64,000 bases of DNA from Caulobacterales bacterium (GTDB taxonomy: Bacteria > Pseudomonadota > Alphaproteobacteria > Caulobacterales > Caulobacteraceae), in contig JBBQGZ010000001.1 of the NCBI GenBank assembly GCA_038323535.1, forward strand, positions 992-64,991. The letters are read 5' to 3'. This document shows, piece after piece, positions 47,988 to 63,999 of this stretch (position 1 is the stretch's first letter; every line of letters begins with the position of its first letter). The notes under the pieces are model-generated. The model did not search any database. It saw only the letters and a program-made list of their open reading frames with translations, and was not told where the DNA came from. A program made the position numbers and the translations under genes.

Positions 47988-48109
47988 GCTCGACCCTCCG
48001 CCCGATCCCGTCGCCGAGCGGCGGTCTTATCAGCCCAGCCGCGAGATGTCTCCGGCCGGTCCGCCGGCGGGCGCTAGGGGATACACAACTCGTTCAGGGG
48101 CACCTCTTG

Positions 48110-48306
48110 AACACCTCTCCCAGAGGGAGAGGGAGGGGCCCATGGCGCAGCCATGGGAGGGTGAGGGGTTACCATGCCCGGCGATTTCGCCATGTCTTTC
48201 AACTTGATACCTGACATCTGCGCCTCATTCGGATAGGCCGTAACCCCTCACCCTCCCACGCCCTGATCGGGCGCGGGCCCCTCCCTCTCCCTTTGGGAGA
48301 GGTGTT
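48110..48306. repeat. Non-coding hairpin inverted-repeat element (CIR/RIME/REPIN-like)
   Basis: Arms 48110-48172 and 48240-48306: AACACCTCTCCCA(G/A)AGGGAGAGGGAGGGGCCC, a variable hairpin, then TGGGAGGGTGAGGGGTTAC, in inverted orientation. Confidence 0.85.
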
Positions 48307-48758
48307 TAAAGATTGGGGATCGGCCGTCATTCAGCCGAGGTCAGGATCCCGCGACAGGCGTCGCATGGCTGGGTTTGCCGTACATGATCGATCCGCCGGC
48401 CGGAGGGCTCACGCGAGCCGCGCCGGGTTGGAACGACACGCCCATGGCCTGGTTGGGGGAGGTGCAGAGCAGCGCCTTCCTGGGCTTGGGGCCGATGGGC
48501 GAGAGGGTGGAGCCGTACGAGGTGATCGCACCCGGAGCGCCCGCCGATGAGGGAATTTGGCGGGGCTATTCACTTTATATTAGGAATCGTCGGGTCCCTT
48601 TACTGGAGTCGCCAATATTACAACTCGAGGTGTCCATTTGGCATGACACCGCTTCAATCCCGACGGCGCCCCGTTTTCGCTCGGCGCCCGGCCGTGAAAC
48701 CAAATGGACGCCCGGGCGCTCTTGAGAGAGCAGGACGGGTGTCTCGGGAGAGACGCTG

Positions 48759-51700
48759 ATGGCCACCAAACACCTGAGGGGCACTTACAACGCCGGCTAC
48801 ACGCTGTCCCACGCCTACTCGTTGCTGAAAATCGACGACACCGCCGTGATCAGGGGCTCGGGCGTCTTCGCCGGCGCCCTGGCCAAGGTGTCCAATCGGG
48901 GATTGGTCCTCGCCGGGGCCGGCGGGGATGGCGGCGCTAGCCATTTTCAAGGCCGCGCGGGCGAGACGGGGATCGAGCTCTCCAAAGGCAACCGGGTGGT
49001 CAACTTCGGCACAACCGCCGGCGGCCGCGGCGGGGCCGGGTTCGGGGTTCATGGCGGCGGCTATGCCGGTGACGGCGGCGCCGGAGGCGTCGCGGTTCTC
49101 TTGGGGGCGCTGGGCTCCGTCACCAACCGCAATCTGATCGTCGGCGGGGATGGCGGCGCAGGGGGCGCCGCGGCCCGCGCGCACCAGGGCGCCGGGGGCG
49201 CCGGGGGCCAGGGCGGCGCCGGAATTTCGCTGACCAGTGGCGGCGACGCGATCAACAGTGGCGCGGTGGACGGCGGCGCCGGCGGCGCTGGCGGGTACGG
49301 CTTGCAGGGCGGCGGCGCGGGCGGAGACGGCGGCGCCGGCATCAGCCTGGGGGCCGCGGGAATCTTCACCATCTACAACGGGACGGTCACCGGCGGCCAT
49401 GGTGGAGCGGGGGGCGGCGGCCGTTTCGGGAGCGGGGGCGCGGCCGGCGGCGCGGGCGGAGCGGCCCTGACCGCCACCGCGGACGCGAGGTTGAAGAACA
49501 ACGCCGTGATCGCGGGCGGCGAAGGCGGCGCGGGCGGCGCCGGGGCCGGCAAAGGCTCCGGAGGGGTCGGGGGCATGGGCGGCCAGGGCGTCGTCCTTCG
49601 CGGCGGCGGCTACATCCTCAACAGCGCCTCGATCGTCGGCGGCAACAGCATCACCATTACCGGCGGCCGGGGCGGCGTCGGGGGCGCCGGGGGCTACGGC
49701 GGCGGCGACAGCTATCGCACGAACGGCGGATTCGGCGGCGAAGGCGGGGCGGGGATCGCCCTTGCCGGGGGCGGCGACGTGACCAACCGCTCGACCATCG
49801 AGGGCGGCGCGGGCGGCGCCGGCGGGGAAGGCGGCTCCCGCGCGGGGACCGCCGCCGGCGGCGGGCGCGGCGGTGCGGGAATCGATGTCACCCTGGTCGC
49901 GGCCAGCCTGTCCAACACCGGCCTCATCCAGGGAGGCCGAGGCGGCCTCGGCGGCGACGCCTACGGCGCTTCGACCGCGGCGGGCCATCATCAGACCGCC
50001 GGTAGCGGCGGCGGGGGCGGCGCGGGAATCTATCTTTCGGCCGGCGGCAGCCTGGTCAACAGCGGTTCTATCGTCGGGGGCGTCGGCGGGGACGGCGGCG
50101 TGGGCGCCGGCTTCGCGGGTGGCGGCGACGGCGGCGACGGCGGCGACGGCGTGGTCCTGCGGGCCGGCGCGGCGATCACCAACCGCGGTGTGATCGCCGG
50201 CGGGGCGCGCGGGGGCGGGGGGGCGAGCGGCGCGGGCGGCGCGGGCGGCTCGGCCGGCGCCCAGGGGGCCGGGGTGGTGCTCACCACCGACTGCTACCTC
50301 CTCAACGACGCGGGCGCCGTGATCACGGGCGGGACCGGGGTCTCCGTGACGGGCGCCAACGCCACGGTCACCAACTACGGCACGATCAGCGGCGGCGCCT
50401 ATTCGGTGAAGCTGAACTTCGCCAGGGATGTGCTGATCGCCGGCGCCGGCGCCCAATTCATCGGCGAGATCGCCGGGGGTGGCGGAACCTTCGAACTCAT
50501 CCGCGGCAGCGGCGTGATCAGCGGCCTGGGGGGGACCGGGGCGGTGTCGGGGACGGACTCCGCCACCTTCTCCGGGTTCGGGTCCTACGTCATCGACTCG
50601 GTCGGCTGGACCCTGGCCGGATCCAACCAGCTCTCAAAAGGCCAGAGCCTGACCGACAACGGCATCCTGACCGTCACCGGATCGCTGGGGGTGTCGGCCG
50701 GCGCGATCGTCCTGGTCGGCGCGGGCAATGACCTGACCTTCCGCGGCGGGGGAGACGTCATCGCCGGCACGCTCGGCGGCGCCGGGACGATCAGCTTCGT
50801 CGGCGTGGTCGATACTTTCAACGGGGCCAACCTCGCGGCGGCCGATCTCCAAATCAAGGATTCGACGGTGACGCTGAACGGCGCGATCACCGAGACCCGC
50901 GTCCTGACGGTCATCACCAGCACCCTGACGGTCGGCGCGGGCGGGGCGACGCTCAGAGGCGGCGGGACCATCGCGTTCGGCGACTTTGCGTCCAATCGCA
51001 TCATCGGCGCCTCGGCGGGCGACACCTTGACCAACGTCGACACCACCATCTCCGGGGCCGGGATGCTGGGTGCGGGCCAGATGACGCTGATCAACATGGC
51101 CGGCGGGGTGATCGACGGCAATGGCTCGCGGGCGTTGATCATCGACACCGGGGCGCGCAGCATCACCAACTCCGGATTGATCGAAGCCTCCGGCGCCGGC
51201 GGGGTGACCATCCAGGGCGAGATCCGAAACTCGGGCCTGCTGGAGGCGGTCGGCGGAGTTCTGACCGTGAATGGCGCGGTGAGTGGCGAGGGGAGCGGGA
51301 TCATCGCCGGCGGCGCCCTGGCCTTCAACGGGGCCTTCCACCAGGACGTCGCGTTCAGCGGCGTGTCGGGCGTGCTGCAACTGGCCGATTCCCTGAACTA
51401 CACCGGCACGGTGAGCGGCTTTTCCAAGGTCGGCGCAACCACTCTGGACCTGAGGGATATCAAGTTCGTCGATTCGAGCGAGGCGAGCTTCAGCGGCACG
51501 GGGTCCGGGGGCGTGCTCAGCATCAGCGACGGTGCGCACACCGCCAAGATCGCCCTGGCCGGCGACTACCTGGCCGCGACCTTCGTCGCGGCGAGCGACG
51601 GTCAGGGCGGCGTGACGATCATCGCCACGACCGGCGGCGCATCCGCCCCCCCGCCGAGCGCGCCGCCGCCCCATGCGCCGCCCCCTCACACCTTCATCGC

Positions 51701-51809
51701 CGCCATGGCCGGCTTCGCCGCCACCCCCGCCGGCCTCGCCCATATGGGCGCCCATGGCGACGCCGGGCGGCTGGCCACGTTGTCGGCCCCGAGGATGGCG
51801 ATGGCGTGA
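48759..51809 (+). CDS. Large glycine-rich repeat protein (PGRS-like/beta-helical), probably surface-exported
   Basis: 1016 aa; repeated N.G.I.GG.GG.GG...GG.GG.G(I/V).L units, beta-rich C-half, SDGQGGVTI, Pro-rich linker, FIAAMAGF tail; no obvious signal peptide or beta-barrel. Confidence 0.85.
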   Translation: MATKHLRGTYNAGYTLSHAYSLLKIDDTAVIRGSGVFAGALAKVSNRGLVLAGAGGDGGASHFQGRAGETGIELSKGNRVVNFGTTAGGRGGAGFGVHGGGYAGDGGAGGVAVLLGALGSVTNRNLIVGGDGGAGGAAARAHQGAGGAGGQGGAGISLTSGGDAINSGAVDGGAGGAGGYGLQGGGAGGDGGAGISLGAAGIFTIYNGTVTGGHGGAGGGGRFGSGGAAGGAGGAALTATADARLKNNAVIAGGEGGAGGAGAGKGSGGVGGMGGQGVVLRGGGYILNSASIVGGNSITITGGRGGVGGAGGYGGGDSYRTNGGFGGEGGAGIALAGGGDVTNRSTIEGGAGGAGGEGGSRAGTAAGGGRGGAGIDVTLVAASLSNTGLIQGGRGGLGGDAYGASTAAGHHQTAGSGGGGGAGIYLSAGGSLVNSGSIVGGVGGDGGVGAGFAGGGDGGDGGDGVVLRAGAAITNRGVIAGGARGGGGASGAGGAGGSAGAQGAGVVLTTDCYLLNDAGAVITGGTGVSVTGANATVTNYGTISGGAYSVKLNFARDVLIAGAGAQFIGEIAGGGGTFELIRGSGVISGLGGTGAVSGTDSATFSGFGSYVIDSVGWTLAGSNQLSKGQSLTDNGILTVTGSLGVSAGAIVLVGAGNDLTFRGGGDVIAGTLGGAGTISFVGVVDTFNGANLAAADLQIKDSTVTLNGAITETRVLTVITSTLTVGAGGATLRGGGTIAFGDFASNRIIGASAGDTLTNVDTTISGAGMLGAGQMTLINMAGGVIDGNGSRALIIDTGARSITNSGLIEASGAGGVTIQGEIRNSGLLEAVGGVLTVNGAVSGEGSGIIAGGALAFNGAFHQDVAFSGVSGVLQLADSLNYTGTVSGFSKVGATTLDLRDIKFVDSSEASFSGTGSGGVLSISDGAHTAKIALAGDYLAATFVAASDGQGGVTIIATTGGASAPPPSAPPPHAPPPHTFIAAMAGFAATPAGLAHMGAHGDAGRLATLSAPRMAMA

Positions 51810-51832: not shown

Positions 51833-51862
51833 TTGACACACCAACCCATCGAGGGTCAGAAC
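51833..51862 (+). promoter_or_regulatory. Promoter-like motif shared by array genes
   Basis: TTGACA-N17-TCAGAAC here and at 54482-54511, 55722-55751 and 57199-57228. Confidence 0.6.
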
Positions 51863-51922: not shown

Positions 51923-53023
51923 ATGTCGAAGAGTGTTACTTTCCACGTCGGTTTACCGAAGACTGGAACGACGACTATTCAAAGATACTTGCGCGGTCAG
52001 GAGGGAAAGCTTCGCTCTCTCGGTTTCCTTTATCCAGGTCCGCGGGAGCACCCAGCGATGGGTCGAGCCAGACATACCGTGATGATGAGCGCCATGGTTC
52101 GAAAACCGACCGCCCAGTCGGAAGGCTTGGATCTGCAGGCGTGTAGGGAGGCGGTGGCGTCGGTCTTTGAGAAATTCGAGAAATCCGGCCTGGAAAATCT
52201 AATCTGGTCCTGTGAAGGGATGGCGTCCCGCGCGCGGGCCTGGGACGAAGAATACCTTGGGCAGATCTTGGACGGCTTCGATGTGCGGGTCGTATTCTTC
52301 GCCAGATACCTGGACGATTGGGTCGAGTCGCTGATCAAGGAACGCATCCGGGGCCGGAGCAAGTCGGCGGCGGAGCGGCTGTCCCAAAAGCCGCTGGCGC
52401 CGCTTTCGCCACAACCGGGCGCGGCGGAGGCCACGTCGGCCCGCGAGCGACGCAGCATGGTCGAGAAGGGCGCCAATATCGTCGATGATCTGCGGACTAT
52501 GCGGAGCAAACTGCCCTTCGCCGAGGTCGTCGTTGGATCGTTCGATACGAATCGTGAAACGGGAACCGTCGTATCGGGCGTCATGGCGGCCATGGGCATC
52601 CCGGTCGAAGGGGCCTTCCCGGACGCCGATGACGAAGCCGAGGTCAGGAACTCGACGAAATCGGACCTGTACAGCATGCTGCTCTATCACTTGATAGTGG
52701 CCGAGGCCGGAGTGGATGTCATCCGCGCCGTCGGCGCCGCGGGCAGAACCAGGGACCGCCGAGGCGTGAAGTTCGAACCGCTCAGCGGTCGCCGCTTCCG
52801 CTTCCTCTCGGACGAAGATGTAGTGCAGGCTCGCGCCTACTACGATGAGCTGCGGCGGGAATACCCCGATCTTCCGGCGCAGCCGCCGTATGTGTCCAGG
52901 CCGGCCGAAAGATACCTGCCCAGAGAGGATGGCGTGGCGGTGCTGGACTGGCTGCGGCCGGATATTTCGGACGCCACCTTCGACAAGGCGCGCGCCGCCT
53001 ATCCCGCCGATCCGAGAGCCTGA
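51923..53023 (+). CDS. Sulfotransferase-fold (P-loop) protein, array copy 1 (subtype A)
   Basis: HVGLPKTGTTTIQ (5'PSB-like), LIWSCE, FFARYLDDWVES (3'PB-like R..S). Confidence 0.75.
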   Translation: MSKSVTFHVGLPKTGTTTIQRYLRGQEGKLRSLGFLYPGPREHPAMGRARHTVMMSAMVRKPTAQSEGLDLQACREAVASVFEKFEKSGLENLIWSCEGMASRARAWDEEYLGQILDGFDVRVVFFARYLDDWVESLIKERIRGRSKSAAERLSQKPLAPLSPQPGAAEATSARERRSMVEKGANIVDDLRTMRSKLPFAEVVVGSFDTNRETGTVVSGVMAAMGIPVEGAFPDADDEAEVRNSTKSDLYSMLLYHLIVAEAGVDVIRAVGAAGRTRDRRGVKFEPLSGRRFRFLSDEDVVQARAYYDELRREYPDLPAQPPYVSRPAERYLPREDGVAVLDWLRPDISDATFDKARAAYPADPRA

Positions 53024-53138
53024 CGGGAAGGCCCGCCACGCGTCGGGCGGACGAGCGTCAAGGCCGGGAATCGGGTCTAAAGATCCGTCAGGGAATAGAT
53101 GATCGCAAATGCCGTTGTGTCGGAACCGCCCTTTGAAA

Positions 53139-53230
53139 CGCCAAGTCGCCAAGGAGCCAAGAAGACAGAACGGCGCTTCGCGCCAAGGCGTTGATTTTCA
53201 CCGGTCTCTTGGCTTCTTGGCGTCTTGGCG
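53139..53230. repeat. Inverted repeat built from three GCCAAG units per arm
   Basis: CGCCAAGTCGCCAAGGAGCCAAGA (53139-53162) and TCTTGGCTTCTTGGCGTCTTGGCG (53207-53230), 22/24 complementary. Confidence 0.8.
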
Positions 53231-53323
53231 GTTGATAGGCTCGACCGAACATCGCCGCGAGCGCCCGGTTGACGACGATTCATTTATTCCTTGACGGGCC
53301 TTAAGATCAAAGGTTGAGCTGTA

Positions 53324-54427
53324 ATGTCGAAACGCGTCACCTTTCATGTCGGGCTCCATAAGACGGGATCCTCGACCATTCAACAGTATTTGCGAGATCA
53401 CGACGAGAAGCTTCGGTCGTTCGGCTGCCTTTATCCAGGGCCGCGCGAACACGAGGCCATGAACCCGCGGAGAAACCACCCGTTGATGTTCATCGCCATG
53501 ACCCGGCTGATGACGGCCCCGTCGGAAGGCCTGGATCTGGCGGGCTGCAGGGAGGTGGTCGCGCGGGTCTTCGAGGAATTTCGCGGGTCCGATCTCGAGA
53601 ACCTGATCTGGTCCTATGAAGCGATGGCGCTCACCGCCCGCGCCTGGGATGCGGACTATCTGGAGCGGATCCTGGGCGGCGTCGATGTGCGCATCGTCTT
53701 CTTCGCCAGATACACGGACGACTGGATCGAGTCGCTCTACAAGGAACTCGTCCGGGCCCGGAGCGGCGCGCGGGCGGAAAGATTCTACGCAAAACCGATG
53801 CCGCCGATCGCGCCGCTCCCGCGGAAGGATGTGGGCTTCGGGACGCGACCGGTGGAAAGCCTGATGGAGCAGGGGGCCAGGATCGGCGACGCCCTGCGGA
53901 TCATGCGAAACAAATTGCCCTCGGCCGAAATCGTGGTTCGATCGTTCGACGCCAATCGTGAGGCGGGAAAAGTCGTATCGGGCGCCTTGGCCGCCATGGG
54001 CGTTCCGGTGGAAAGCGCCTTCCCGGACGCCGACGCCGAGGCCGGGGTCAAGAACCCGACGAAATCGGACCTCTACAGCATGCTGCTCTATCATCTGATC
54101 ATGGCGCGGGCCGGGGTGGAGGTGATCAGCGCCGTCCACGCCGCGGGCCGCAAGAGGGACCGGAAAGGTCAGAAGTTCGAACCGCTCGGCGGTCGCCGCT
54201 TCCGCTTCCTCTCCGACGAGGACGCCATCCGCGCGCGCGGTTGCTACGAAGAATTGCGCCAGGAATATCCCGACCTTCCGGCGCAGCCGCCGTTTGTATC
54301 GAAGCCAGCCGAAAGATATCTGGCCAGGGATGAAGGGGTCGCGCTGCTGGACTGGCTGCGGCCGGATATTTCGGACCCCATCTTCGACAAGGCGTGCGCG
54401 GCCTACCCGGCGGATTCGAGAGGCTGA
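53324..54427 (+). CDS. Sulfotransferase-fold protein, array copy 2 (subtype B)
   Basis: HVGLHKTGSSTIQ, LIWSYE, FFARYTDDWIES. Confidence 0.75.
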   Translation: MSKRVTFHVGLHKTGSSTIQQYLRDHDEKLRSFGCLYPGPREHEAMNPRRNHPLMFIAMTRLMTAPSEGLDLAGCREVVARVFEEFRGSDLENLIWSYEAMALTARAWDADYLERILGGVDVRIVFFARYTDDWIESLYKELVRARSGARAERFYAKPMPPIAPLPRKDVGFGTRPVESLMEQGARIGDALRIMRNKLPSAEIVVRSFDANREAGKVVSGALAAMGVPVESAFPDADAEAGVKNPTKSDLYSMLLYHLIMARAGVEVISAVHAAGRKRDRKGQKFEPLGGRRFRFLSDEDAIRARGCYEELRQEYPDLPAQPPFVSKPAERYLARDEGVALLDWLRPDISDPIFDKACAAYPADSRG

Positions 54428-54571
54428 ACGGAACGCCCGCGCCGCGGCCCTCGATCGGCCCGGACCACCGCCGCCGACCCCTTGACATGCCAGCCCGTCA
54501 AGGATCAGAACGGCCGCCGTCCCCATTTATAACTGCCTAGGAACGGGGTTCACGCCGAAGGTCGGGCCGCG

Positions 54572-55666
54572 ATGTCGAAACGTGTCACACTCCATGCGGG
54601 ACTGCCGAAGACTGGCACCACCACTATTCAAAGATACTTGCGGAGTCAGGACGAAAAACTTCGCTCCCTCGGATTCCTTTATCCAGGCGCGCGTGAGCAC
54701 GAGGCCATGCGGCCACACAAGCATCACCTGATGATCAACGCCATGGTGGGAAACGCGAAGTCCCGGTCGGAAGGCCTGGATTTGCAAGGCTGCCGGGAGG
54801 TGGTGGGGCGGGTCTTCGAGGAATTCCACCGATCCGATCTGGAAAACCTGATCTGGTCTTATGAAGGCATGGCGCTCGCGGCGCGCAATTGGGATGCCGA
54901 ATACCTGGAGCGGATCCTGGCCGGCGCCGAGGTGCGTATCGTGTTCTTCGCGAGATATGTCGACGACTGGGTCGAGTCGCTGGTCAAGGAACGGATTCGC
55001 GGCCGGCGCGGGCAGCACGCGGAGAGCCTGACCGGCAAACCGCTGACGCTGGCCCCGCTGCCGGCGGCGGCCGATGGCGAGGCGGCGCAAACGGGCCGGA
55101 GCATGCTCGAAAAGGGGGCCAAGATCGTCAAGGCCGTGCGGGTTATGCGTCACAAACTGCCCTCGGCCGAAATTGTCGCGCTTTCATTCGACGAACATCG
55201 CGGGAAGGGAAAACTCGTATCGGGCGCATTGGCGGCGATGGGGGTTCCGGAAGGGGCCTTCCCGGACGCCGATGACGAGGCCGGGGTCAAGAACCCGACG
55301 AAATCGGACCTGCACAGCATGCTGCTCTACCATCTGGTGCTGGGACGGGCCCAAGGGGAAGTCATCCACGCGGTCGGCGCCGCCGGCGCGATGCGAGACA
55401 AGCTCGGCCGCGAATACGAACCGCTCGCCGGCCGCCGCTTCCGCTTCCTCTCGGACGACAACATCATCCAGGCCCGCGGCTACTACGAAGAGCTGCGCCA
55501 GGACTATCCCGATCTGCCGGCGCAGCCGCCCTATGTCTCCAGGCCGGCCGAACGGCGCCTGTCGAGAGATGAAGGTGTCGCGGTGCTGGACTGGCTGCGG
55601 CCGGATATTTCGGACGCCGTCTTCGATGAGGCCTGCGCCGCCTACCCCGCGGATCCGCAAGCCTGA
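54572..55666 (+). CDS. Sulfotransferase-fold protein, array copy 3 (subtype C)
   Basis: HAGLPKTGTTTIQ, LIWSYE, FFARYVDDWVES. Confidence 0.75.
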   Translation: MSKRVTLHAGLPKTGTTTIQRYLRSQDEKLRSLGFLYPGAREHEAMRPHKHHLMINAMVGNAKSRSEGLDLQGCREVVGRVFEEFHRSDLENLIWSYEGMALAARNWDAEYLERILAGAEVRIVFFARYVDDWVESLVKERIRGRRGQHAESLTGKPLTLAPLPAAADGEAAQTGRSMLEKGAKIVKAVRVMRHKLPSAEIVALSFDEHRGKGKLVSGALAAMGVPEGAFPDADDEAGVKNPTKSDLHSMLLYHLVLGRAQGEVIHAVGAAGAMRDKLGREYEPLAGRRFRFLSDDNIIQARGYYEELRQDYPDLPAQPPYVSRPAERRLSRDEGVAVLDWLRPDISDAVFDEACAAYPADPQA

Positions 55667-55826
55667 CCACAGGGCCCGCGACCAGGGCGCTGGCCCCATC
55701 GCGAGGCGGCGGCGCGACCGCTTGACAGGCCGAGCAATCAGCAATCAGAACAGAGCCGGAGTTCCCCTATGACCGCGCGACGCCTAGCGTGCCGCGGAAG
55801 GGAGTCACGTCACGGATTGAGCCGCC

Positions 55827-56951
55827 ATGCCGAAGAGTGTCTGTTTTCATGTGGGCCTTCCGAAGACGGGCACCACCACTATCCAAAGATATCTAAGGGG
55901 CCAGTACGAGAAACTTCGCTCTCTGGGCTTTCTTTATCCGGGTCTAGGGGAACACCCGGCGATGCACCTGCCAAGACATACCTTGATGATGAGCGCCATG
56001 ATCGGGAAGGCGACGGCCCAGTCGGAAGTCCTGGACCTGAAGGCCTGCAGGGAGGCGATTGCGATGGTCTTCAAGAAATTTCACGAATCCGATCTGGAAA
56101 ATCTGCTTTGGTCTTGCGAAGGGATGGGGCTGACCGCGCGCATCTGGGATGCGGAATACCTGGAGAGAATCCTGGAAGGCGTCGATGTGCGCATCGTGTT
56201 CTTCGCGAGGTACGTGGACGACTGGGTCGAGTCATATGTCAAGGAACGTATCCGGGGCCGGAGCAAATCAGGAGCGGAAAGGCTTTCCAAAAAGCCGCTG
56301 CCGCCGCTTGCTCCGCTAGCGGGGGTGGCCGAGGGTTCGGCGGCCCGGTCGCGTGAAAGCGTGCTCGAGAAAGGGGCCAAGTTCACGGAAGCCTTGCGGA
56401 TCATGCGGAACAAGGCGCCCTCGGCAGAGATCGTCGTTCGATCCTTCGACGCGGATCGCGCCAAGGGAAGAGTCGTCTCCGGCGCCCTGGAGGCCATGGG
56501 CGTCCCGGTCGGAGGGAACTTTCCGGACGCCGATGATGAGGCCGGGGTCAAGAACTCGACGAAATCGGACCTGTACAGCATGCTGCTCTATCATTTGATA
56601 ACGGCGCAGGCGGGGGTGGATGTCATCCGCGCCGTCGGGGCCGCGGGCAGAACGAGGGACCGCCGGGGCGTGAAGTACGAACCGCTCGGCGACCGCCGCT
56701 TCCGCTTCCTCTCGGACGAGAATGTGATCGAGGCTCGCGGCTATTACGAAGAGCTCCGCGAGGAATATCCCGACCTTCCGGCGCAACCCCCGTTTGTATC
56801 CAGACCGGCCGAACGATACCTGCCCAGGGACGAGGGCGTCGCGGTGCTGGACTGGCTGCGGCCGGATATCTCGGACGCCACCTTCGACAAGGCGTGCGCC
56901 GCCTACCCGGCGGATCCGGGGGGGCCGAGCGGAACGCCGGCTCAGGTTTGA
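55827..56951 (+). CDS. Sulfotransferase-fold protein, array copy 4 (subtype A)
   Basis: HVGLPKTGTTTIQ, LLWSCE, FFARYVDDWVES. Confidence 0.75.
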   Translation: MPKSVCFHVGLPKTGTTTIQRYLRGQYEKLRSLGFLYPGLGEHPAMHLPRHTLMMSAMIGKATAQSEVLDLKACREAIAMVFKKFHESDLENLLWSCEGMGLTARIWDAEYLERILEGVDVRIVFFARYVDDWVESYVKERIRGRSKSGAERLSKKPLPPLAPLAGVAEGSAARSRESVLEKGAKFTEALRIMRNKAPSAEIVVRSFDADRAKGRVVSGALEAMGVPVGGNFPDADDEAGVKNSTKSDLYSMLLYHLITAQAGVDVIRAVGAAGRTRDRRGVKYEPLGDRRFRFLSDENVIEARGYYEELREEYPDLPAQPPFVSRPAERYLPRDEGVAVLDWLRPDISDATFDKACAAYPADPGGPSGTPAQV

Positions 56952-56964
56952 AGTCGGAGCTGAG

Positions 56965-57249
56965 GTGTCAAAGCGTGTCGTCTTTCATGTCGGCCTTCCC
57001 AAGACGGGAACGACGACCATTCAACACTATTTGCGGAGCCAGGATGAGAAGCTCCAATCTTTCGGCATCCTCTATCCGGGCTCCCGGGAGCACGAGGCGA
57101 TGGAGTCGCACAAACATGACCCGATGTTGAACGCGCTCGGGCCAACGTCAACGGCGGCCGGATATCGGGCGGGCGCGGCTTCTGGCGTCGCCGGCCCCTT
57201 GACACGCCAGCCCGTCGAGGATCAGAACGGCCGCCGTCCCCATTTATAA
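56965..57249 (+). pseudogene. Truncated array copy 5 (N-terminal ~57 aa only)
   Basis: VSKRVVFHVGLPKTGTTTIQHYLRSQDEKL...HDPMLNAL, then homology ends near 57135 and the frame runs into the copy 6 upstream region. Confidence 0.85.
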
Positions 57250-57288
57250 CTGCCTAGGAACGGGGTTCACGTCAAAGGTCGCGCCGCG

Positions 57289-58380
57289 ATGTCGAAGGTT
57301 GTCACATTCCACGTTGGACTTCCAAAGACTGGCACGACAACTATTCAAAAATACTTGAGGAGCCAAGACGAAAAACTTCGCTCTCTCGGAATCCTCTATC
57401 CCGGCGCGCGTGAGCACGAGGCTCTGCGTCCCCCCAAGCATTCCGTGATGATCAACGCCATGAAGGGAAGGGTGACGGCGCCGTGCGGGGGCCTCGACCT
57501 CAAGACTTGCCGGGAGGTGGTCGAGCGGGTCTTCGAGGAATTCCACAAGTCCGATCTGGAAAACCTGATCTGGTCCTGTGAAGGGATATTGCTCGCGGCG
57601 AAAATTTGGGATGCCGAATACCTGGAGCGGATTTTGGCCGGCGCCGAGGTGCGCATCGTGTTCTTCGCCAGGTACATCGACGATTGGATCGAGTCGCTGA
57701 TCAAGGAACGGATTCGCGGGAGCAGCGGGTCTCGCCAAAGTGTTTCTCCGGTGAAGCGGCTGAAGATCGCTCCGTCGCCGGACGCGGCCGACGGCGCGGC
57801 GCAAACGGGCAGGAGTGTGCTCGATCACGGCGCCAAGATCGTCAAGGCCGCGCGGGCCATGCGCGAAAAGGCGCCTTCGGCCGAGATCGTCGCCCGCTCG
57901 TTCGATGCGGATCGGGCCAAGCGGAAGCTCGTGTCCGGCGCTTTGGCGGCTATGGGGGTTCCGGAAGGCGCCTTCCCGGACGCCGATGATGAAGCCGGGG
58001 TCAAGAACCCGACGAAATCGGACCTGTACAGCATGCTGCTCTATCATTTGATAACGGCGCAGGCGGGGGTGGATGTCATCCGCGCCGTCGGGGCCGCGGG
58101 CAAAAACAGGGACCGCCGGGGCATGAAGTATGAACCGCTCGGCGACCGCCGCTTCCGCTTCCTTTCGGACGAGAATGTGATCGAGGCTCGCGGCTATTAC
58201 GAAGAGCTCCGCGAGGAATATCCCGACCTTCCAGCGCAACCCCCGTTCGTATCCAGGCCGGCCGAACGGCGCCTGCCCAGGGACGAAGGCGTCGCGGTGC
58301 TGGACTGGCTGCGGCCGGATATCTCGGACGCCACCTTCGACAAGGCGTGCGCCGCCTACCCGGCGGATCCGGGAGGCTGA
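57289..58380 (+). CDS. Sulfotransferase-fold protein, array copy 6 (C/A chimera)
   Basis: HVGLPKTGTTTIQ, LIWSCE, FFARYIDDWIES; N-half like copy 3, C-third like copy 4. Confidence 0.75.
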   Translation: MSKVVTFHVGLPKTGTTTIQKYLRSQDEKLRSLGILYPGAREHEALRPPKHSVMINAMKGRVTAPCGGLDLKTCREVVERVFEEFHKSDLENLIWSCEGILLAAKIWDAEYLERILAGAEVRIVFFARYIDDWIESLIKERIRGSSGSRQSVSPVKRLKIAPSPDAADGAAQTGRSVLDHGAKIVKAARAMREKAPSAEIVARSFDADRAKRKLVSGALAAMGVPEGAFPDADDEAGVKNPTKSDLYSMLLYHLITAQAGVDVIRAVGAAGKNRDRRGMKYEPLGDRRFRFLSDENVIEARGYYEELREEYPDLPAQPPFVSRPAERRLPRDEGVAVLDWLRPDISDATFDKACAAYPADPGG

Positions 58381-58491
58381 TTGGAACGCCCGCCACTCGC
58401 CGGCCAGGCTGGCTCAACGCCGGTGCGATGAATCGCTCGGGCGGCGACCGGCGCCGCTGATGTCGGGATTTACGTCAAGGGTCGAGCTGTA

Positions 58492-59673
58492 ATGTCGAAA
58501 CGCGTCACCTTCCATGTCGGGCTCCACAAGACGGGATCCTCGACCATTCAACAGTATTTGCGAGATCACGACGAGAAGCTTCGTTCTCATGGCATCCTCT
58601 ATCCGGGGCCGCGCGAACACGAGGTGATGAACGAGCGGGAAAGCCACCCCCTCATGTTCATCGCCATGACCCGGTTGATGACGGCCCCTTCGGCAGGCTT
58701 GGACCTGCAGGGCTGTCGGGAGGTGGTGGCGGGGGTCTTCAGGAAGTTTCACCAATCGGAATTCGAGAACCTGATTTGGTCCTATGAAGCGATGGCGCTC
58801 ACCTCCCGCGCTTGGGATGCGGACTATCTGGAAGGAATTTTGCACGGCGCCGATGTGCGCATTGTTTTCATCGCCAGATACACGGACGACTGGATCGAGT
58901 CGCTCTACAGGGAAATCATCCGGTCCCGGGCCGGCCCGCGGGCGGAAGTCTTCTACGCGCTACCGATGCCGCCGATCGCACCGCCCTCGATCGCGCCGCC
59001 CTCGAGGGCTCAGAAGGCCGCCGGGGCTCGACCGCCGGAAAGCCTGCTGGAGCAGGGCGCCAGAATGACCAAGGCCTTGCGGATCATGCGGGACAAATTG
59101 CCCTCGGCCGAAATCGTGGTTCGATCGTTCGACGCGGATCGTGAGGAGGGAAGAGTCGTCTCCGGCGCCTTGGCGGCCATGGAGGTCCCGGTGGAAAGCG
59201 CCTTTCCTGACGCCGATGAGGAGGCCGGCGTCCGCAACCCGACGAAGTCAGACCTCTACAGCATGCTGCTCTATCACCTGATAGTGGCGCGAGCCGGGGT
59301 GGATGTGATCAGCGCCGTTCACGCCGCGGGCAGAAAGAGGGATCGCAAAGGCGTGCAGTTCGAACCGTTCAGCGGCCGGCGCTTCCGTTTCCTGTCGGAT
59401 GAAGAGACGATACGGGCGCGCGGCTACTATGAGCAGCTGCGAGAGGACTACCCCACCCTTCCGGCGCAGCCGCCGTATGTCTCCAAGCCAGCCGAACGAT
59501 ACCTGCTCAGGGATGAAGGCGTCGCGCTGCTGGACTGGCTGCGGCCGGATATTTCGGACGCCATCTTCGACCAGGCGTGCGCCGCCTATCCCGCGGATCC
59601 GAAGGCTGACCGAAAACACTCACGACGACCTCCGCGACCAGGGCACAGTCAGAGTAAATTATCCGCGCGGTAA
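58492..59673 (+). CDS. Sulfotransferase-fold protein, array copy 7 (subtype B)
   Basis: HVGLHKTGSSTIQ, LIWSYE, FIARYTDDWIES; short C-terminal extension. Confidence 0.75.
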   Translation: MSKRVTFHVGLHKTGSSTIQQYLRDHDEKLRSHGILYPGPREHEVMNERESHPLMFIAMTRLMTAPSAGLDLQGCREVVAGVFRKFHQSEFENLIWSYEAMALTSRAWDADYLEGILHGADVRIVFIARYTDDWIESLYREIIRSRAGPRAEVFYALPMPPIAPPSIAPPSRAQKAAGARPPESLLEQGARMTKALRIMRDKLPSAEIVVRSFDADREEGRVVSGALAAMEVPVESAFPDADEEAGVRNPTKSDLYSMLLYHLIVARAGVDVISAVHAAGRKRDRKGVQFEPFSGRRFRFLSDEETIRARGYYEQLREDYPTLPAQPPYVSKPAERYLLRDEGVALLDWLRPDISDAIFDQACAAYPADPKADRKHSRRPPRPGHSQSKLSAR

Positions 59674-59784: not shown

Positions 59785-60684
59785 TTACTCACAGCGGTGC
59801 GTACTCCACCGCGCCTTGAATTCGGCGATTTCATGCGCGCGATAGAAATGCGTGACGGCCGGCACGTCGTAGATTGCGTTCAGGGTCGCGGCGGGAAGGT
59901 GGAAACGCTCGCGAGTCTGAACGTAGAGCGGGTAGGATCGCCGCGTCGCCGCCGTGTTTACCTCCGGCAGCGCGAAATCGGGGTCTCCCAGAAACCTCTT
60001 CGCCGCGTCGTGCAGGAGTTGGCGCGTCGATGCTTCGGATGCGATGTCTTCGGCGCGATAGACGAGCAACGCGACGCCGGGGCTGTTCAAGCACTGGGCC
60101 CCACCGCCGGACGGGAACGGCGATGAGAATATATCGAGACCGAAGACCGCTAGAAGTTCCTCGTCGAACCAGGTTCGATAGGCCCCGATCATGCGCCACG
60201 CCAGCCGCTCGAAGCTGCCGGTGGGCTCGGTCCCCGCCAGGACCCATCGCCATAGCTCGCCGAGAACCGCGCACACCGCATCGGCGCTCGCCCCGTCCTT
60301 CGCGCTGAGGCTCCCGCCTGTATGGCCGCAGAAGTCCGCCAGGAAGCTCAGAAGCGACAGCGATCGGGCGACTGGGTCGCGCATGCCCGTGATCACGCGG
60401 ATCTCCTGCCGGCGTTCGCGCGCGGCTTCGATCTGCGCAATTCCTTTCCTGCCTTTGCGCACGATATCGCGCGCAATGAGCGGGTTGACGATGGAATTGT
60501 TCTCGCGCGGAGTGGCCAGGATCGCCGCGATGGCCTGAAGATTGGCCGCGGTCAAATAGTGGGCGTGGACGGGAGCCACCCCGCCTTGTCCAGCCGCCGG
60601 CGCCGCCGCCTCGACCCAGGCGAGCGAGGCCACCTTCGCCATCTGGTGCACGACGATTAGCCTTCCGCTGCTCACGCGCGCCAC
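59785..60684 (-). CDS. Sulfotransferase-like protein (resembles the putative capsular polysaccharide synthesis/NKWYS family)
   Basis: HQMAKVAS (degenerate 5'PSB), ITGMRDPVARSLS (3'PB), WFDEEL..FGLDIF..PF. Confidence 0.65.
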   Translation of the reverse strand: MARVSSGRLIVVHQMAKVASLAWVEAAAPAAGQGGVAPVHAHYLTAANLQAIAAILATPRENNSIVNPLIARDIVRKGRKGIAQIEAARERRQEIRVITGMRDPVARSLSLLSFLADFCGHTGGSLSAKDGASADAVCAVLGELWRWVLAGTEPTGSFERLAWRMIGAYRTWFDEELLAVFGLDIFSSPFPSGGGAQCLNSPGVALLVYRAEDIASEASTRQLLHDAAKRFLGDPDFALPEVNTAATRRSYPLYVQTRERFHLPAATLNAIYDVPAVTHFYRAHEIAEFKARWSTHRCE

Positions 60685-60690
60685 CGGTCC

Positions 60691-61932
60691 TCAAACAAAG
60701 TCGGCCCAGGCGCGGGCCATGGCCGGAACACGCGTCCGCGTTTCCCAGACCACCGACCCCGGGACGAGGCGTAGGTCGGGATGGGCGAGCAGGGCGGCAA
60801 TCGCCACCTCCGACTCCATCTGGGCCAGCGCGGCGCCCAGGCAGCGATAAGCGCCATGGCCGAAGGCGAGGGAGTCCGGCCCCTCTCGGTCGATGTCGAT
60901 GGCGTCGGGATCCGGAAAGGCGGCCGGATCGCGGTTGGCGGCGCCCAGGATGATGGTGACCCGCTCGCCGGCGCGGATCGTCTCGCCGCTGAACTGGCAA
61001 TCGCGCGCGGCGATGCGAGCGACATACTGGAAGGGGGAGGCGAGACGCAGAAACTCCCGCACCGCTCCGGCCACTTTACCCGGCTCGGCGATCAGGCGCG
61101 CGCGCACGTCGCTTCGTTCCAGCAGCATGACTGCCGAGGCGGGGATGCCCGTCGCCGTCGACTCCTGGCCTCCGCTGAAAATGAATGTGAGCAAACCGGC
61201 AAGATCCCGATCACTCAATCCCAGGTCGCTGTCGCTGCGTTCCACCAGTTGCGAAAAACGGCTCTCGTCGGGTCGCGCACGGTTGCGGCCGATCTCCAGC
61301 TCAAAATAATCCAGAAGTTTGCCGGCCCGTGCTTCGGCTTGCCGCAATTCACGCAACGATCGCGGCGTCAAATCAAAGATCCAGGCTACCTCGCGGGCAG
61401 TCGCGGCCTGGGCGAGACAGTCTTCCGATGGCAAGCCGAGCAGGGTCTGGATAGTAAAAATGGCCAAGTCGCGTCCAAAACCGGCCGCCAAGTCGAGTCT
61501 TCCGACCTGGCGCGCGGCAAGCAGAAGGCCAGCGGCGCGCCGCTCGAGCCCGGCGCGAATTCCAGCCACTTCCGGGCCCTGAAAGAGGCGGGACATGAAT
61601 TTCCGCAATTGAATATGGCGCGGTGGATTGGTGAAGAAGGCGACGTTCGACAGAACGGTCCTGAGATTTGGCAGCGAGGGTCCGCCGCGTCGCTCGAGGA
61701 GATCGAAACGCGCGATCGGATCGTCGGCGAGAAAGGCCGGATCGCTCAGGACCGACAGCGCGTCGGCGTGCCGCGTCAGGACCCAACCGCCGAAATGGCG
61801 GCTCCAATGGACCGGCGCGGCCTCGCGCAGCAGCGCGTAGGTCGAGACGAGGTTGTCTGGCGCCAACTGGGCGAGAGGATCCGGACTCAGGCTGGCGCGC
61901 GTTCCGCGCACGGCGGCGGATGTGTTGGTCAC
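60691..61932 (-). CDS. Cytochrome P450
   Basis: WVLTRHAD, NPPRH, SGGQEST (I-helix), EFLR, AANRDP, FGHGAYRCLG. Confidence 0.93.
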   Translation of the reverse strand: MTNTSAAVRGTRASLSPDPLAQLAPDNLVSTYALLREAAPVHWSRHFGGWVLTRHADALSVLSDPAFLADDPIARFDLLERRGGPSLPNLRTVLSNVAFFTNPPRHIQLRKFMSRLFQGPEVAGIRAGLERRAAGLLLAARQVGRLDLAAGFGRDLAIFTIQTLLGLPSEDCLAQAATAREVAWIFDLTPRSLRELRQAEARAGKLLDYFELEIGRNRARPDESRFSQLVERSDSDLGLSDRDLAGLLTFIFSGGQESTATGIPASAVMLLERSDVRARLIAEPGKVAGAVREFLRLASPFQYVARIAARDCQFSGETIRAGERVTIILGAANRDPAAFPDPDAIDIDREGPDSLAFGHGAYRCLGAALAQMESEVAIAALLAHPDLRLVPGSVVWETRTRVPAMARAWADFV

Positions 61933-61966
61933 GGAACCGAGCCCGGCGAGGTGAGGCTTCCGACGA

Positions 61967-62248
61967 TCATGGCGCGTCGAACTCCTCGGTGGTAGCGCCT
62001 CTTCCGTCGTGCTCGACCGCAGCGACCATGGCTTCGATCGTCGGATATTGCAGGAAGGCCGCGGGATCGATCTCGAAGCTCAATTCATCCTCCAAGGCCC
62101 CGGCCATCAGCACCGCCTCGATCGAATCGAGTCCGTAGCTTTCGAGAGTCCGGTCGAGCTCCACTTCCTTTTCCGGAATGCCGAGAACCTCGGCGAGATA
62201 CCGGCGCACCCATCCTCGAAGTTCGCTGTCGGCCAGAGCCTGGTTCAT
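61967..62248 (-). CDS. Acyl carrier protein (PKS-type)
   Basis: YGLDSIEAV phosphopantetheine Ser, YPTIEAM; start overlaps the FAAL stop (ATGA). Confidence 0.92.
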   Translation of the reverse strand: MNQALADSELRGWVRRYLAEVLGIPEKEVELDRTLESYGLDSIEAVLMAGALEDELSFEIDPAAFLQYPTIEAMVAAVEHDGRGATTEEFDAP

Positions 62249-63999
62249 TCGGCGCCCCCGTTGCGGGAGGCGCCGGTCTGAGGCGCCTTGGGACGCCAGC
62301 GGCTGAGTTCCGGGTGGCGCGACTCGACCAGGGGTGGGAGCAGGCCGTTCAAATATCGCTCCCGGCAGAGATGCCGCTGCACCTTGCCGCTCGTGGTCCG
62401 TGGCAGGACGCCGGCCCGAAGCAGCACGAGGTCGTAGAGGGCCAGGCCGAAGTTCAGGCTGATGGTCTCGGCCACCCGGGCCACCACGGCGGCCGAATCG
62501 AGCGTTTTCATCGCGGCGCGCTCCACCTCATGCACGAGCACCACCTGTTCGCCGGCGGGACTGTCGAACGAGAATGCACCGCCACCGCCGTGGCTCAAAG
62601 CGGGGTGGCACCGTTCGGCGGCGACTTCCAGATCGAGCGGATCGAAGTTCGCTCCACGGACGATGATCATGTCCTTGAGCCGGCCGGTCACCACCAGCCC
62701 CTCGACTGACATGAAGCCGAGGTCCCCCGTGCGCAGCCAGCCGCCGGACCTGTCGCCGTCGCAAAGGGTCGCATCGAACATTTCCGCGGTTTCCAGCGGG
62801 CGGCGCCAATAGCCTTGGCTTATGCTCGCACTGCGAAGCCAGATCTCCCCGACCTCGCCCGGAGGCGCCGCCATGCGGCGGACCGGATCGACCACGATGA
62901 GCTCGTGACGCGGCCAGGGATGACCGCAGGAGACCAGACGGCGGGTGCGTTCCGGGCTCGCCGGCGACGCGGCGCGTCCTTCGGCCAGGCTTGGACCGTC
63001 CACGGAGCAGACGTCGAACCCGCCGCCCGCCTTCACCGAAGCCGCGAGCAGCGTGGACTCGGCCAGACCATAGGCGGGGGCCAGCGCTTCAGGTCTGAAA
63101 CCGGCCGGGGCGAAGGTTTCGGCAAACCGTTCGAGCACTTCGGGCCGAATCATCTCGCCACCGCAAACGGCTATTCGCCAGCAGGAGAGATCGAGCGACG
63201 CGCGCTGCTGCGGCGTGGTTCGGCGCTCGCAAAGATCGTAGGCGAAGACCGGACCGGCGCTCAAGGTTCCGCGATAGCGATCGATGACCTCCAGCCAGCG
63301 CGCCGGCCGCTTCAAAAACGCGACCGGGGGCATCAGGACACAACGCAGGCCCGCATAAATGGGGAAAAATCCGAAACCGAAGAGGCCCATGTCGTGATTG
63401 AAGGGCAACCAATTCACCGCCGTCTCGCCTTCCTCGACTCGGGTGGCCTTGGCCATCGCTCCAAGGTTGCTCAGCAAGTTAGCATGCGTCAGCATCACGC
63501 CGCGCGGCGTGGTGGTTGAACCGGACGTGTATTGCAGCATCGCCAGGGAATGCGGGCCAGGCAAGGTGGACGGCGAAAACTCGACTGCTTTATCAACGTC
63601 GTCCGTGGTCAAAATACTTACGCCGGCGGGCGCTTCCTCAGTCACCCGCGCGGCGAGCGCGGCGACGGTCAGCATGCCCGCGGCGGAGGAATCGATCGCC
63701 AGCGCTCGGACGCGGTCCAGCGACTGCGCGCCGGGCAGCGGCGCCACGACCGCGATGGCGCCCGCATAGAAGCAGCCGAACAACGCCGCCAGCAAGTCCA
63801 GGCCGGAAGGATAGACCAGCAGGACCGGTTCGCCACCCAGACCGTGATCCAGCACAAGCCGCGCAATCGAACGGGCGCGGCGGTCGAGCCCGGCAAAGGT
63901 GATCCTTCCGGCTTCCCGCTCGCCGTTCTCGAGCCACAGGAAGGCTTCCTCATCGGGCGCGCGCAGGGCCCGACTGTGTAGAACATCGACCAGTGACGT
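62245..63999 (-). CDS. Fatty acyl-AMP ligase (FAAL), 5' end outside the window
   Basis: Frame open to the edge (TSLVDVLHSRA...AFLWLENGE); LQYTSGST, WLPFNHDMGL, YGLAEST, FAAL-type insertion before LVSCG, WLRTGDLG, PRTTSGKVQR. Confidence 0.93.
   Translation of the reverse strand, partial: TSLVDVLHSRALRAPDEEAFLWLENGEREAGRITFAGLDRRARSIARLVLDHGLGGEPVLLVYPSGLDLLAALFGCFYAGAIAVVAPLPGAQSLDRVRALAIDSSAAGMLTVAALAARVTEEAPAGVSILTTDDVDKAVEFSPSTLPGPHSLAMLQYTSGSTTTPRGVMLTHANLLSNLGAMAKATRVEEGETAVNWLPFNHDMGLFGFGFFPIYAGLRCVLMPPVAFLKRPARWLEVIDRYRGTLSAGPVFAYDLCERRTTPQQRASLDLSCWRIAVCGGEMIRPEVLERFAETFAPAGFRPEALAPAYGLAESTLLAASVKAGGGFDVCSVDGPSLAEGRAASPASPERTRRLVSCGHPWPRHELIVVDPVRRMAAPPGEVGEIWLRSASISQGYWRRPLETAEMFDATLCDGDRSGGWLRTGDLGFMSVEGLVVTGRLKDMIIVRGANFDPLDLEVAAERCHPALSHGGGGAFSFDSPAGEQVVLVHEVERAAMKTLDSAAVVARVAETISLNFGLALYDLVLLRAGVLPRTTSGKVQRHLCRERYLNGLLPPLVESRHPELSRWRPKAPQTGASRNGGAE

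What the first reader, a model, noticed from the sequence alone, without database searches (positions are those of the whole stretch)
51923..59673. Tandem array of seven paralogous sulfotransferase-fold genes
Seen: six full (363-393 aa) and one truncated head-to-tail paralogs over 7.7 kb. All share H(V/A)GL(P/H)KTG(TT/SS)TIQ; the six full copies also share L(I/L)WS(C/Y)E, ARY.DDW(V/I)ES, N(S/P)TKSDL.SMLLYHL and a near-invariant C-terminus (LDWLRPDISD..FD.A.AAYPAD). Differences concentrate in two patches (about aa 43-62 after EH, and aa 140-175 after the R..S motif). Established: KTG(T/S)(T/S) and R-x7-S are the PAPS-binding motifs of sulfotransferases. Inference: a diversified enzyme library with conserved cofactor site and varied acceptor pocket, able to give multi-site or variable sulfation of a lipid, glycan or surface protein. 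I know of no described system like this.
Basis: partly seen in the sequence, partly recalled or inferred. Interest (0 to 1): 0.85.

Follow-up and report, generated by a model that had tools for sequence, protein, structure and literature searches.

The report
Tandem battery of specialised bacterial sulfotransferases
An uncultured soil or sediment bacterium carries six intact, old, side-by-side copies (plus a stub) of a predicted sulfate-adding enzyme; the copies keep the same cofactor motifs but differ, type by type, in segments predicted to grip the target, so they likely add sulfate at different positions of a cell-surface sugar polymer.

Summary
The array is real: six intact genes (363-393 aa, 64-80% identical) and a stub at 51923-59673. 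A seventh full copy lies on another contig, and the sister species G065 has seven copies, three in the same order. Synonymous divergence between copies (0.38-0.87) exceeds that between the two species (0.28-0.34), so they are not strain variants.

The AlphaFold model (pLDDT 89.8) best matches heparan-sulfate sulfotransferases (Z 12.6; best kinase 8.0), and both PAPS motifs are intact.

Three segments (aa 47-65, 137-155, 172-190) are conserved within a paralog type but differ between types; two align, weakly, to substrate-contact residues of 3-OST-3. Residues 156-177 are just a variable linker. There is no positive selection, so this is a fixed set of types, not a hypervariable library.

The genes belong to a very large, poorly annotated family (12,584 clusters) that is often multiplied and linked to glycosyltransferases and APS kinase. 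A glycan acceptor is inferred, not shown. Earlier scan notes (unchecked) report tandem sulfotransferase arrays in other genomes. Verdict: a new variant of a known kind.

The parts
51923..53023 (+). W1, sulfotransferase-fold gene, type A (366 aa)
   Evidence: same type as the first copy of the G065 three-gene run, dN 0.123
53324..54427 (+). W2, type B (367 aa; HKTGSS loop)
54572..55666 (+). W3, type C (364 aa)
   Evidence: G065 counterpart dS 0.354, dN 0.074, matching species divergence
55827..56951 (+). W4, type D (374 aa); the copy modelled (residues 1-367)
56965..57249 (+). Stub: about 60 homologous codons, closest to type E, which is intact in G065
   Evidence: 77.6% over 58 aa to type E, 74% to the next best; the W4-stub junction is bridged by a contig in both runs laid at 98%
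57289..58380 (+). W5, type C-related N-terminal part with a W4-like C-terminal part (363 aa)
58492..59673 (+). W6, type B (393 aa, with a C-terminal extension)
56523..56915 (+). W4 codons 233-363, nearly identical to the matching part of W5 (about 57976-58371): a recent gene-conversion or unequal-crossover tract
   Evidence: W4-W5 dS 0.089 here against 1.08 in codons 1-232. Homologue P0026 is 93% like W5 in the N part but more like W3 (88%) than W5 (80%) in the C part
51833..51862 (+). Upstream element TTGACA-N18-CAGAAC before W1 (promoter-like; inferred)
   Evidence: The pattern occurs 4 times in the whole assembly, all in this array; similar elements precede G065 copies; the generic sigma-70 scan found 0 sites
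54482..54511 (+). Same upstream element before W3
55722..55751 (+). Same upstream element before W4
57199..57228 (+). Same upstream element before W5, inside the stub's frame; near-copy of W3's
53075..53305 (.). Palindromic interspersed repeat in the W1-W2 spacer; absent from the matching 35-bp spacer of G065
   Evidence: 11 matches of 100 bp or more in G000; fold z = -6.3

Best explanation
The array holds six intact paralogs and a stub whose products are predicted to be cytoplasmic PAPS-dependent sulfotransferases of the heparan-sulfate-sulfotransferase-like fold, which likely add sulfate at different positions or sugars of a cell-surface glycan. Shown: the genes are real, older than the split from the sister species, under purifying selection, and fall into types with fixed differences in three segments. 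Predicted: the fold; PAPS binding by K13 in the GLPKTGT loop and by R128/S136. Inferred: a catalytic base at H51 or E98; that segments 47-65, 137-155 and 172-190 line the acceptor cleft, so each type has its own acceptor or position preference; that PAPS comes from the genome's CysNC; that the acceptor is a glycan modified before export. Unequal crossover and gene conversion reshuffle the C-terminal third, while the type-defining segments persist.
For: Fold: pLDDT 89.8, pTM 0.87. The top 11 VIA rows are all sulfotransferases (1nst Z 12.6, rmsd 4.3, 239 aligned; 3bd9 Z 12.5; 3rnl Z 12.3); best kinase Z 8.0. All 4 Foldseek hits at E<=0.001 are sulfotransferases. A 48-sequence wider-family profile hits 3rnl at E 1.6e-12; 24 of 30 PDB hits are sulfotransferases, none a kinase. 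K13, R128, S136 and the RxxxDxxxS consensus match the defining residues in PMC11625862 (passages; conservation). Age and selection: paralog dS 0.38-0.87, dN/dS 0.25-0.39; housekeeping dS to G065 0.28-0.34 (4 genes). Type-specific windows 137-155, 47-65 and 172-190: p<=0.0003 against 10,000 column shuffles at protein level. In 14 coding sequences the 137/144-start and 46-64 windows pass in both pairings (p 0.0005-0.023); the 172-190 region mostly does not. Through the profile, E140 and G144 align to 3-OST-3 Gln255 and Lys259, and residue ~179 to Ser284, all substrate contacts in PMC8341778 (passages). Segment 137-155 has net charge +2 to +5 in all 15 sequences. Glycan link: G065's four-copy locus interleaves an NAD-dependent epimerase, two other sulfotransferase-like genes and a GT4. 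In 22 distant wider-family loci the nearest genes include a glycosyltransferase in 6, APS kinase in 3 and another sulfotransferase in 5. All 4 non-sulfotransferase fusion partners among 41 long relatives are glycan enzymes. G000 has CysNC.
Against: No activity, substrate or expression data. No Pfam or NCBIfam sulfotransferase model reaches its cut-off for any copy scanned (best E 0.0025). The structural matches have rmsd above 4 A and 8-14% identity, and Foldseek ranks tyrosylprotein sulfotransferases first. Types come from a quick tree that includes the tested segments, and gene conversion in other regions can inflate the contrast. The array in this window has no glycosyltransferase beside it; its downstream neighbour is a lipid-type cassette. 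The single copies on G000:C29 and in G028 have no glycan gene among the neighbours examined. The neighbour counts have no background control, and CysC is near-universal in the genus (69 of 78).
Confidence: 0.52

Rival explanations
1. PAPS-dependent sulfotransferases acting on a lipid or small molecule, for example the product of the convergent FAAL-ACP-P450-NKWYS cassette just downstream.
For: The cassette abuts the array (59785-63999, minus strand) with similarly low GC3 (0.76-0.80); one contig of run X2 covers the end of W6 and the start of the cassette. All 5 genomes with the NKWYS gene also have at least one wider-family gene. Sulfotransferase domains of curacin and olefin synthases are among the fold hits.
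Against: The NKWYS gene was found in 5 of 78 genus genomes and, with this query, not in G065 (85% complete) or G028 (70% complete), the only other carriers of the subfamily. The other four carriers lack the subfamily.
Confidence: 0.16
2. Redundant duplicates kept for dosage or by drift; all copies do the same reaction, and the patches are merely tolerant surface loops.
For: dN/dS between same-type copies (0.16-0.24) is higher than for housekeeping genes (0.05-0.155); 21% of codons fit a neutral class; a stub and a conversion tract show turnover; linker 156-177 varies within types.
Against: Segments 96-107 and 137-155 differ by only 4% and 12% within types but 40% and 56% between types (whole gene: 18% and 34%). 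The same types recur in separate assemblies.
Confidence: 0.15
3. They sulfate the secreted glycine-rich surface proteins (or glycans on them), one of whose genes lies directly upstream.
For: A glycine-rich gene ends directly upstream of the array in both G000 and G065. All six genomes with 9-12 wider-family genes have 21-38 matches to the glycine-rich family. Tyrosylprotein sulfotransferases top the Foldseek list.
Against: In G010, G020, G028 and G098 only 2 of 41 wider-family genes have a listed glycine-rich hit within 5 kb (my comparison; a third neighbour seen), about what 20-30 scattered copies would give. G012, G027, G032 and G100 have 25-37 glycine-rich matches and 0-1 wider-family genes.
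Confidence: 0.08
4. The fold is used for other chemistry (a kinase-like phosphotransfer, or a sulfation-dependent elimination) rather than stable sulfation.
For: P-loop kinases share the fold at Z 6-8, and retinol dehydratase is among the hits.
Against: The loop reads G-L-P/H-K-T-G-T/S, without the G-K-T/S of a Walker A motif (motif recalled). The 3'-phosphate R...S motif is intact, and no kinase appears among 30 profile hits.
Confidence: 0.06
5. Assembly artefact: strain variants stitched in tandem.
For: The genome is a fragmented, 77% complete assembly, and no contig of the runs laid spans the array. One joint from W3 to W5 appeared at 90% likeness.
Against: Copies are too divergent (dS 0.38-0.87). 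G065 has the same A-B-C order. Two runs cover 29 and 30 of 30 bins at >=98% with no joints (one study, possibly the source sample).
Confidence: 0.02

Closest known systems
Heparan sulfate N-sulfotransferase (NDST1 domain, PDB 1NST) and 3-O-sulfotransferases (3-OST-3, 3-OST-5; PDB 1T8T, 3BD9)
   Same: Best structural matches (Z 12.5-12.6); same PAPS loop and R...S motif; isoform families with a shared core and different substrate selectivity (seven human 3-OST isoforms, PMC8341778 abstract opening).
   Different: 8-11% identity; bacterial, no transmembrane anchor; about 40 extra C-terminal residues unaligned; catalytic base not identified; encoded as a tandem array.
Alicyclobacillus acidocaldarius sulfotransferase (PDB 3RNL)
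   Same: Best sequence match to the wider-family profile (E 1.6e-12) and Z 12.3; PSB loop, R...S helix and downstream Asn align.
   Different: 14% identity. I found no substrate for it in my calls, so it fixes the fold, not the function.
Bacterial polysaccharide sulfotransferases: Synechocystis XssA/XssE (synechan), Vibrio and Cobetia capsule clusters, Actinoplanes WpsB/WpsH, Mesorhizobium KpsS
   Same: Sulfotransferase genes tied to surface-glycan synthesis; PAPS-synthesis genes in the Vibrio and Cobetia clusters (passages of PMC8205485, PMC11641403, PMC11766843, PMC13390465, PMC11625862).
   Different: Those clusters carry one to three sulfotransferases, of distinct families where stated, inside a glycan locus. 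Here six close paralogs of one subfamily stand in tandem with no glycosyltransferase beside them. I did not compare sequences with these enzymes.
Pfam Sulfotransfer_1/3/4 (PF00685, PF13469, PF17784)
   Same: Weak N-terminal hits in 4 of 6 copies (E 0.0025-0.078); 5-7 of 48 wider-family members hit each model at E<=0.01.
   Different: No copy reaches a gathering threshold; the family lacks its own model in the Pfam and NCBIfam copies searched.

Membership tests
PAPS-dependent sulfotransferase superfamily | 5'-PSB strand-loop-helix with catalytic Lys/Arg | tested here: met
   K13 in 6 of 6 copies, 41 of 41 subfamily rows that cover it, K/R in 48 of 48 wider-family rows; strand 4-10 then helix 16-25; aligns to the 3RNL loop
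PAPS-dependent sulfotransferase superfamily | 3'-PB strand-turn-helix, RxxxDxxxS | tested here: met
   R128, D132, S136 invariant in the six; R 54 of 55, S 53 of 55 in the subfamily; consensus from PMC11625862
PAPS-dependent sulfotransferase superfamily | Central beta-sheet alpha/beta fold | tested here: met
   Top 11 VIA rows are sulfotransferases, Z 8.0-12.6
PAPS-dependent sulfotransferase superfamily | Catalytic base (His or Glu) | tested here: inconclusive
   Candidates H51 (46 of 46 subfamily rows that cover it; 40 of 48 wider) and E98 (55 of 55; 48 of 48); no coordinates to place them
PAPS-dependent sulfotransferase superfamily | Sulfuryl transfer from PAPS | not testable with these tools
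   Needs an enzyme assay
Pfam PF00685 / PF13469 / PF17784 | Score above the gathering threshold | tested here: not met
   Best 18.1 bits against 22.8 (PF17784) and 17.2 against 27 (PF13469); PF00685 not listed at E<=0.1
Heparan-sulfate-type carbohydrate sulfotransferases | Acceptor-cleft residues equivalent to 3-OST-3 Gln255, Lys259, Ser284 | tested here: inconclusive
   Position 140 is Gln or Glu in 43 of 48 wider-family rows and aligns to Gln255 via a weak profile alignment (E 0.035); the Lys259 position is not conserved
Heparan-sulfate-type carbohydrate sulfotransferases | Glycan acceptor | not testable with these tools
   Only guilt by association
P-loop nucleotide kinases | Walker A GxxxxGK(S/T) (motif recalled) | tested here: not met
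   G15 is followed by T/S, not K, in all six copies; best kinase Z 8.0 against 12.6
Diversifying or hypervariable gene arrays | Positive selection on variable segments | tested here: not met
   Highest regional dN/dS 0.88 (linker); M2a against M1a 2dlnL about 0 (14 sequences, codons 2-232)

The most novel reading that the evidence does not exclude
The array is a bacterial counterpart of the animal heparan-sulfate isoform system: a panel of regiospecific enzymes that writes a defined multi-site sulfation pattern on a soil bacterium's surface polysaccharide. It is the visible tip of an unrecognised family of over 12,000 sequence clusters that is repeatedly deployed in batteries (tandem genes, dispersed sets of 9-12, or 2-4 domains in one chain).
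Probability: 0.2. Interest if true: 0.75.

Novelty: new variant of a known kind. Interest (0 to 1): 0.45.

Why it matters
The papers read say little is known about bacterial enzymes that sulfate polysaccharides and that Pfam profiles miss many of them. This array is a ready-made natural panel: soluble, compact, 64-80% identical enzymes whose fixed differences map to a few dozen residues. If the types differ in regiospecificity, they make the rules of acceptor recognition directly testable, supply candidate catalysts for making defined sulfated glycans, and point to heavily sulfated surfaces in soil and sediment bacteria. If the copies prove redundant, it is an ordinary gene expansion.

Tried and rejected
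Subfamily profile against PDB sequences: nothing significant. NCBIfam: no relevant family. Protein atlas: no answer obtained. Metagenome scan: only 2 short loci, one frameshifted. No RNA holder listed, which says nothing about expression. No contig spans the array; the W3-to-W5 joint seen at 90% likeness vanished at 98%, so I do not count it as copy-number variation. Generic sigma-70 scan: 0 sites. Positive selection: rejected. Segment 96-107 looked strongly type-specific (ratio 11) but fails the window scan (p 0.28 at protein level). Physical linkage to glycine-rich genes: not clearly above chance. The FAAL-ACP-P450-NKWYS cassette as obligate partner: rejected. Single-sequence model of the NKWYS protein: pLDDT 35.9, unusable. 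The careful protein tree did not finish, so the quick tree was used, without 2 of 56 rows under 250 aa. The GyrB tree covers 42 of 78 genus genomes and has weak deep branches. Shared contig lengths suggest further multi-copy contigs (5 besides those of G000 and G065), but I could not fetch them. Literature searches listed no description of this array or family; I saw listings only, and subscription papers are not covered. No supplements were opened. Earlier-finding look-ups by place and by sequence were empty.
Full report
Setting. The window is G000:C1:992-64991 of a 2.6-Mb, 217-contig, 77% complete assembly with 69% GC. Close homologues are named Caulobacteraceae by their sources. The two public runs holding most of the array are sediment and soil metagenomes of one study, possibly the source. 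The array has GC3 0.74-0.80 against a genome median of 0.88 (5th percentile 0.78), as do the genes downstream, which suggests an accessory island (inference).

Observation. Six intact head-to-tail ORFs and one stub lie at the stated coordinates. They are 64-80% identical, and all quoted motifs are present. A seventh full copy lies on contig C29 next to an integrase and a SRAP gene near tolC-valS. The two named patches are significantly variable but hold 48 of 189 variable columns. Four genes (W1, W3, W4, W5) are preceded by the same 30-bp element, found nowhere else in the assembly, so most duplication units likely carried their own promoter (inferred; the generic scan found none).

Not an artefact. 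Synonymous divergence among the six copies is 0.38-0.87. G065, the sister species on a GyrB tree of 42 genomes, differs at four housekeeping genes by dS 0.28-0.34, so the duplications predate the species split. G065 has seven full copies on two contigs; one run of three follows a glycine-rich gene in the same type order as W1-W2-W3. Two runs cover 29 and 30 of 30 bins at >=98% with no joints, and both bridge the W4-stub junction; no contig spans the whole array. Full-length members of the subfamily occur in 3 of 78 genus genomes (G000, G065, and G028 with one copy; the tally includes unpublished G002, which has none).

Fold and cofactor. The model of W4 built on 55 sequences has pLDDT 89.8. 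Against 48,161 chains the top 11 matches are sulfotransferases, led by heparan-sulfate N- and 3-O-sulfotransferases and PDB 3RNL (Z 12.3-12.6, rmsd 4.0-4.3); the best kinase scores 8.0. Foldseek's four hits at E<=0.001 are sulfotransferases, three of them tyrosylprotein enzymes. A profile of 48 wider-family sequences finds 3RNL at E 1.6e-12 and 24 sulfotransferases among 30 hits, no kinase. The defining PSB lysine and RxxxDxxxS motif (PMC11625862, passages) are met. No Pfam or NCBIfam sulfotransferase threshold is reached. The first strand starts at residue 4 and the highest 19-residue hydropathy in the six is 1.62, so the proteins are likely cytoplasmic. The genome encodes CysNC, but so do most relatives (69 of 78 match).

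What varies and how. A quick tree of 54 proteins shows recurring types shared between assemblies. Comparing 4 same-type pairs with 21 between-type pairs, residues 137-155 differ 12% against 56%, 43-62 18% against 52%, 96-107 4% against 40%, but the linker 156-177 40% against 64% (whole gene 18% against 34%). A window scan over 12 types gives 137-155, 47-65 and 172-190 at p<=0.0003; in the coding-sequence set 137-155 and 46-64 hold, 172-190 mostly does not, and 96-107 fails. Through the profile, E140, G144 and residue ~179 align with 3-OST-3 Gln255, Lys259 and Ser284, which contact the oligosaccharide in PMC8341778 (passages); this leg of the alignment is weak (E 0.035) and no superposition was possible. 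Segment 47-65 surrounds H51, where heparan-sulfate enzymes carry their base on a loop (placed by position only). No region has dN/dS above 1, and a site model finds no positively selected class (79% of codons at 0.14, 21% neutral). W4 and W5 share a recent tract in the C-terminal third (dS 0.089 against 1.08), and a W5-type homologue elsewhere has a W3-like C-terminus. So the array turns over by recombination while type-defining segments persist. Caveats: types come from trees that include these segments, and conversion elsewhere sharpens the contrast.

The acceptor. The array has no glycan gene beside it. G065's four-copy locus includes an epimerase, two other sulfotransferase-like genes and a GT4. 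The wider family comprises 12,584 clusters at E<=0.001, only 35 at E<=1e-30. I picked 22 of 77 distant loci for spread and scanned 101 of 105 nearest genes (dropping three tandem family copies and one overlapping frame): glycosyltransferases at 6 loci, APS kinase at 3, other sulfotransferases at 5 (no background control). Of 143 new top hits, 39 carry 2-4 divergent copies of the domain in one chain (ranking favours such proteins), and the 4 non-sulfotransferase fusion partners among 41 long proteins are GT4 (twice), GT2 and a polysaccharide pyruvyl transferase. Six of 78 genus genomes, in four separate branches of the GyrB tree, hold 9-12 wider-family matches; 53 have none at E<=1e-8. Multiplication is thus a habit of this family, reached here by tandem duplication. 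The downstream FAAL-ACP-P450-NKWYS cassette occurs in 5 of 78 genomes and was not found in G065 or G028. Glycine-rich genes co-occur at genome level but are not clearly enriched next to family genes.

Comparison and novelty. It works like a set of carbohydrate sulfotransferase isoforms. It is a member of the PAPS-dependent superfamily by motif and fold, but of no curated family. Described bacterial sulfated-glycan clusters have one to three sulfotransferases (passages of PMC8205485, PMC11641403, PMC11766843, PMC13390465). Eight searches listed no account of this array or family (listings only). Unchecked earlier notes of this scan describe tandem sulfotransferase arrays of other families in other genomes, so the arrangement is recurrent rather than unique.

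Verdict. Observation confirmed; interpretation partly supported. Best reading: a fixed battery of likely regiospecific glycan sulfotransferases (0.52). New variant of a known kind; interest 0.45.

Noticed in passing
window 59785-63999 (-), continuing to G000:C1:66914: TPR protein - fatty acyl-AMP ligase - acyl carrier protein (61967-62248) - cytochrome P450 - NKWYS (PF10364) cassette. The NKWYS gene is in 5 of 78 genus genomes, with a second copy on G000:C111; some versions add a TauD-like gene (name from my reading of the sequence) or a second P450/NKWYS pair. It looks like an undescribed lipid-tailoring pathway.
   Followed up: partly
G000:C1:67542-68381 (+), just beyond the window: A classical Sulfotransfer_1 gene, so the island may hold a third kind of sulfotransferase-like gene if NKWYS is one (untested).
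   Followed up: partly
window 48759-51809 (+): 1016-aa glycine-rich (28% Gly) protein without a Pfam match; its C-terminal domain has 20 or more matches in 14 of 78 genus genomes and none in 53 (tally includes unpublished G002).
   Followed up: partly
window 53075-53305 and 48075-48310: Two families of roughly 230-bp interspersed repeats, with 11 and 47 matches in G000, also many in G065; the first folds into a long hairpin (z -6.3). MITE- or REPIN-like (labels recalled).
   Followed up: partly
L030:7895-11893: A Halieaceae genome has four tandem wider-family genes: three 98.6-100% identical and one 47-49%; a very recent expansion or an assembly repeat.
   Followed up: partly
L120-L122 (G075:C5:1-45000): Island with a second cysD-cysNC set, an epimerase-like gene, the FAAL-P450-NKWYS cassette, two wider-family sulfotransferases and apparent type I secretion genes (most names from my reading of the sequences).
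   Followed up: no
L108:5036-18000 (G020:C27) and L107 (G010:C213): Cluster downstream of gyrB with five sulfotransferase-like genes of two families in G020, a mannose-1-phosphate guanylyltransferase, a sugar epimerase and a GT4-like gene.
   Followed up: partly
P0068, P0079 and 37 other proteins: Single chains with 2-4 divergent copies (19-76% identical) of the wider-family domain.
   Followed up: partly
window 40225-43941 (+): Three-gene run: a membrane protein, a small secreted protein and an M48-like peptidase with a weak LoiP/BepA match.
   Followed up: no
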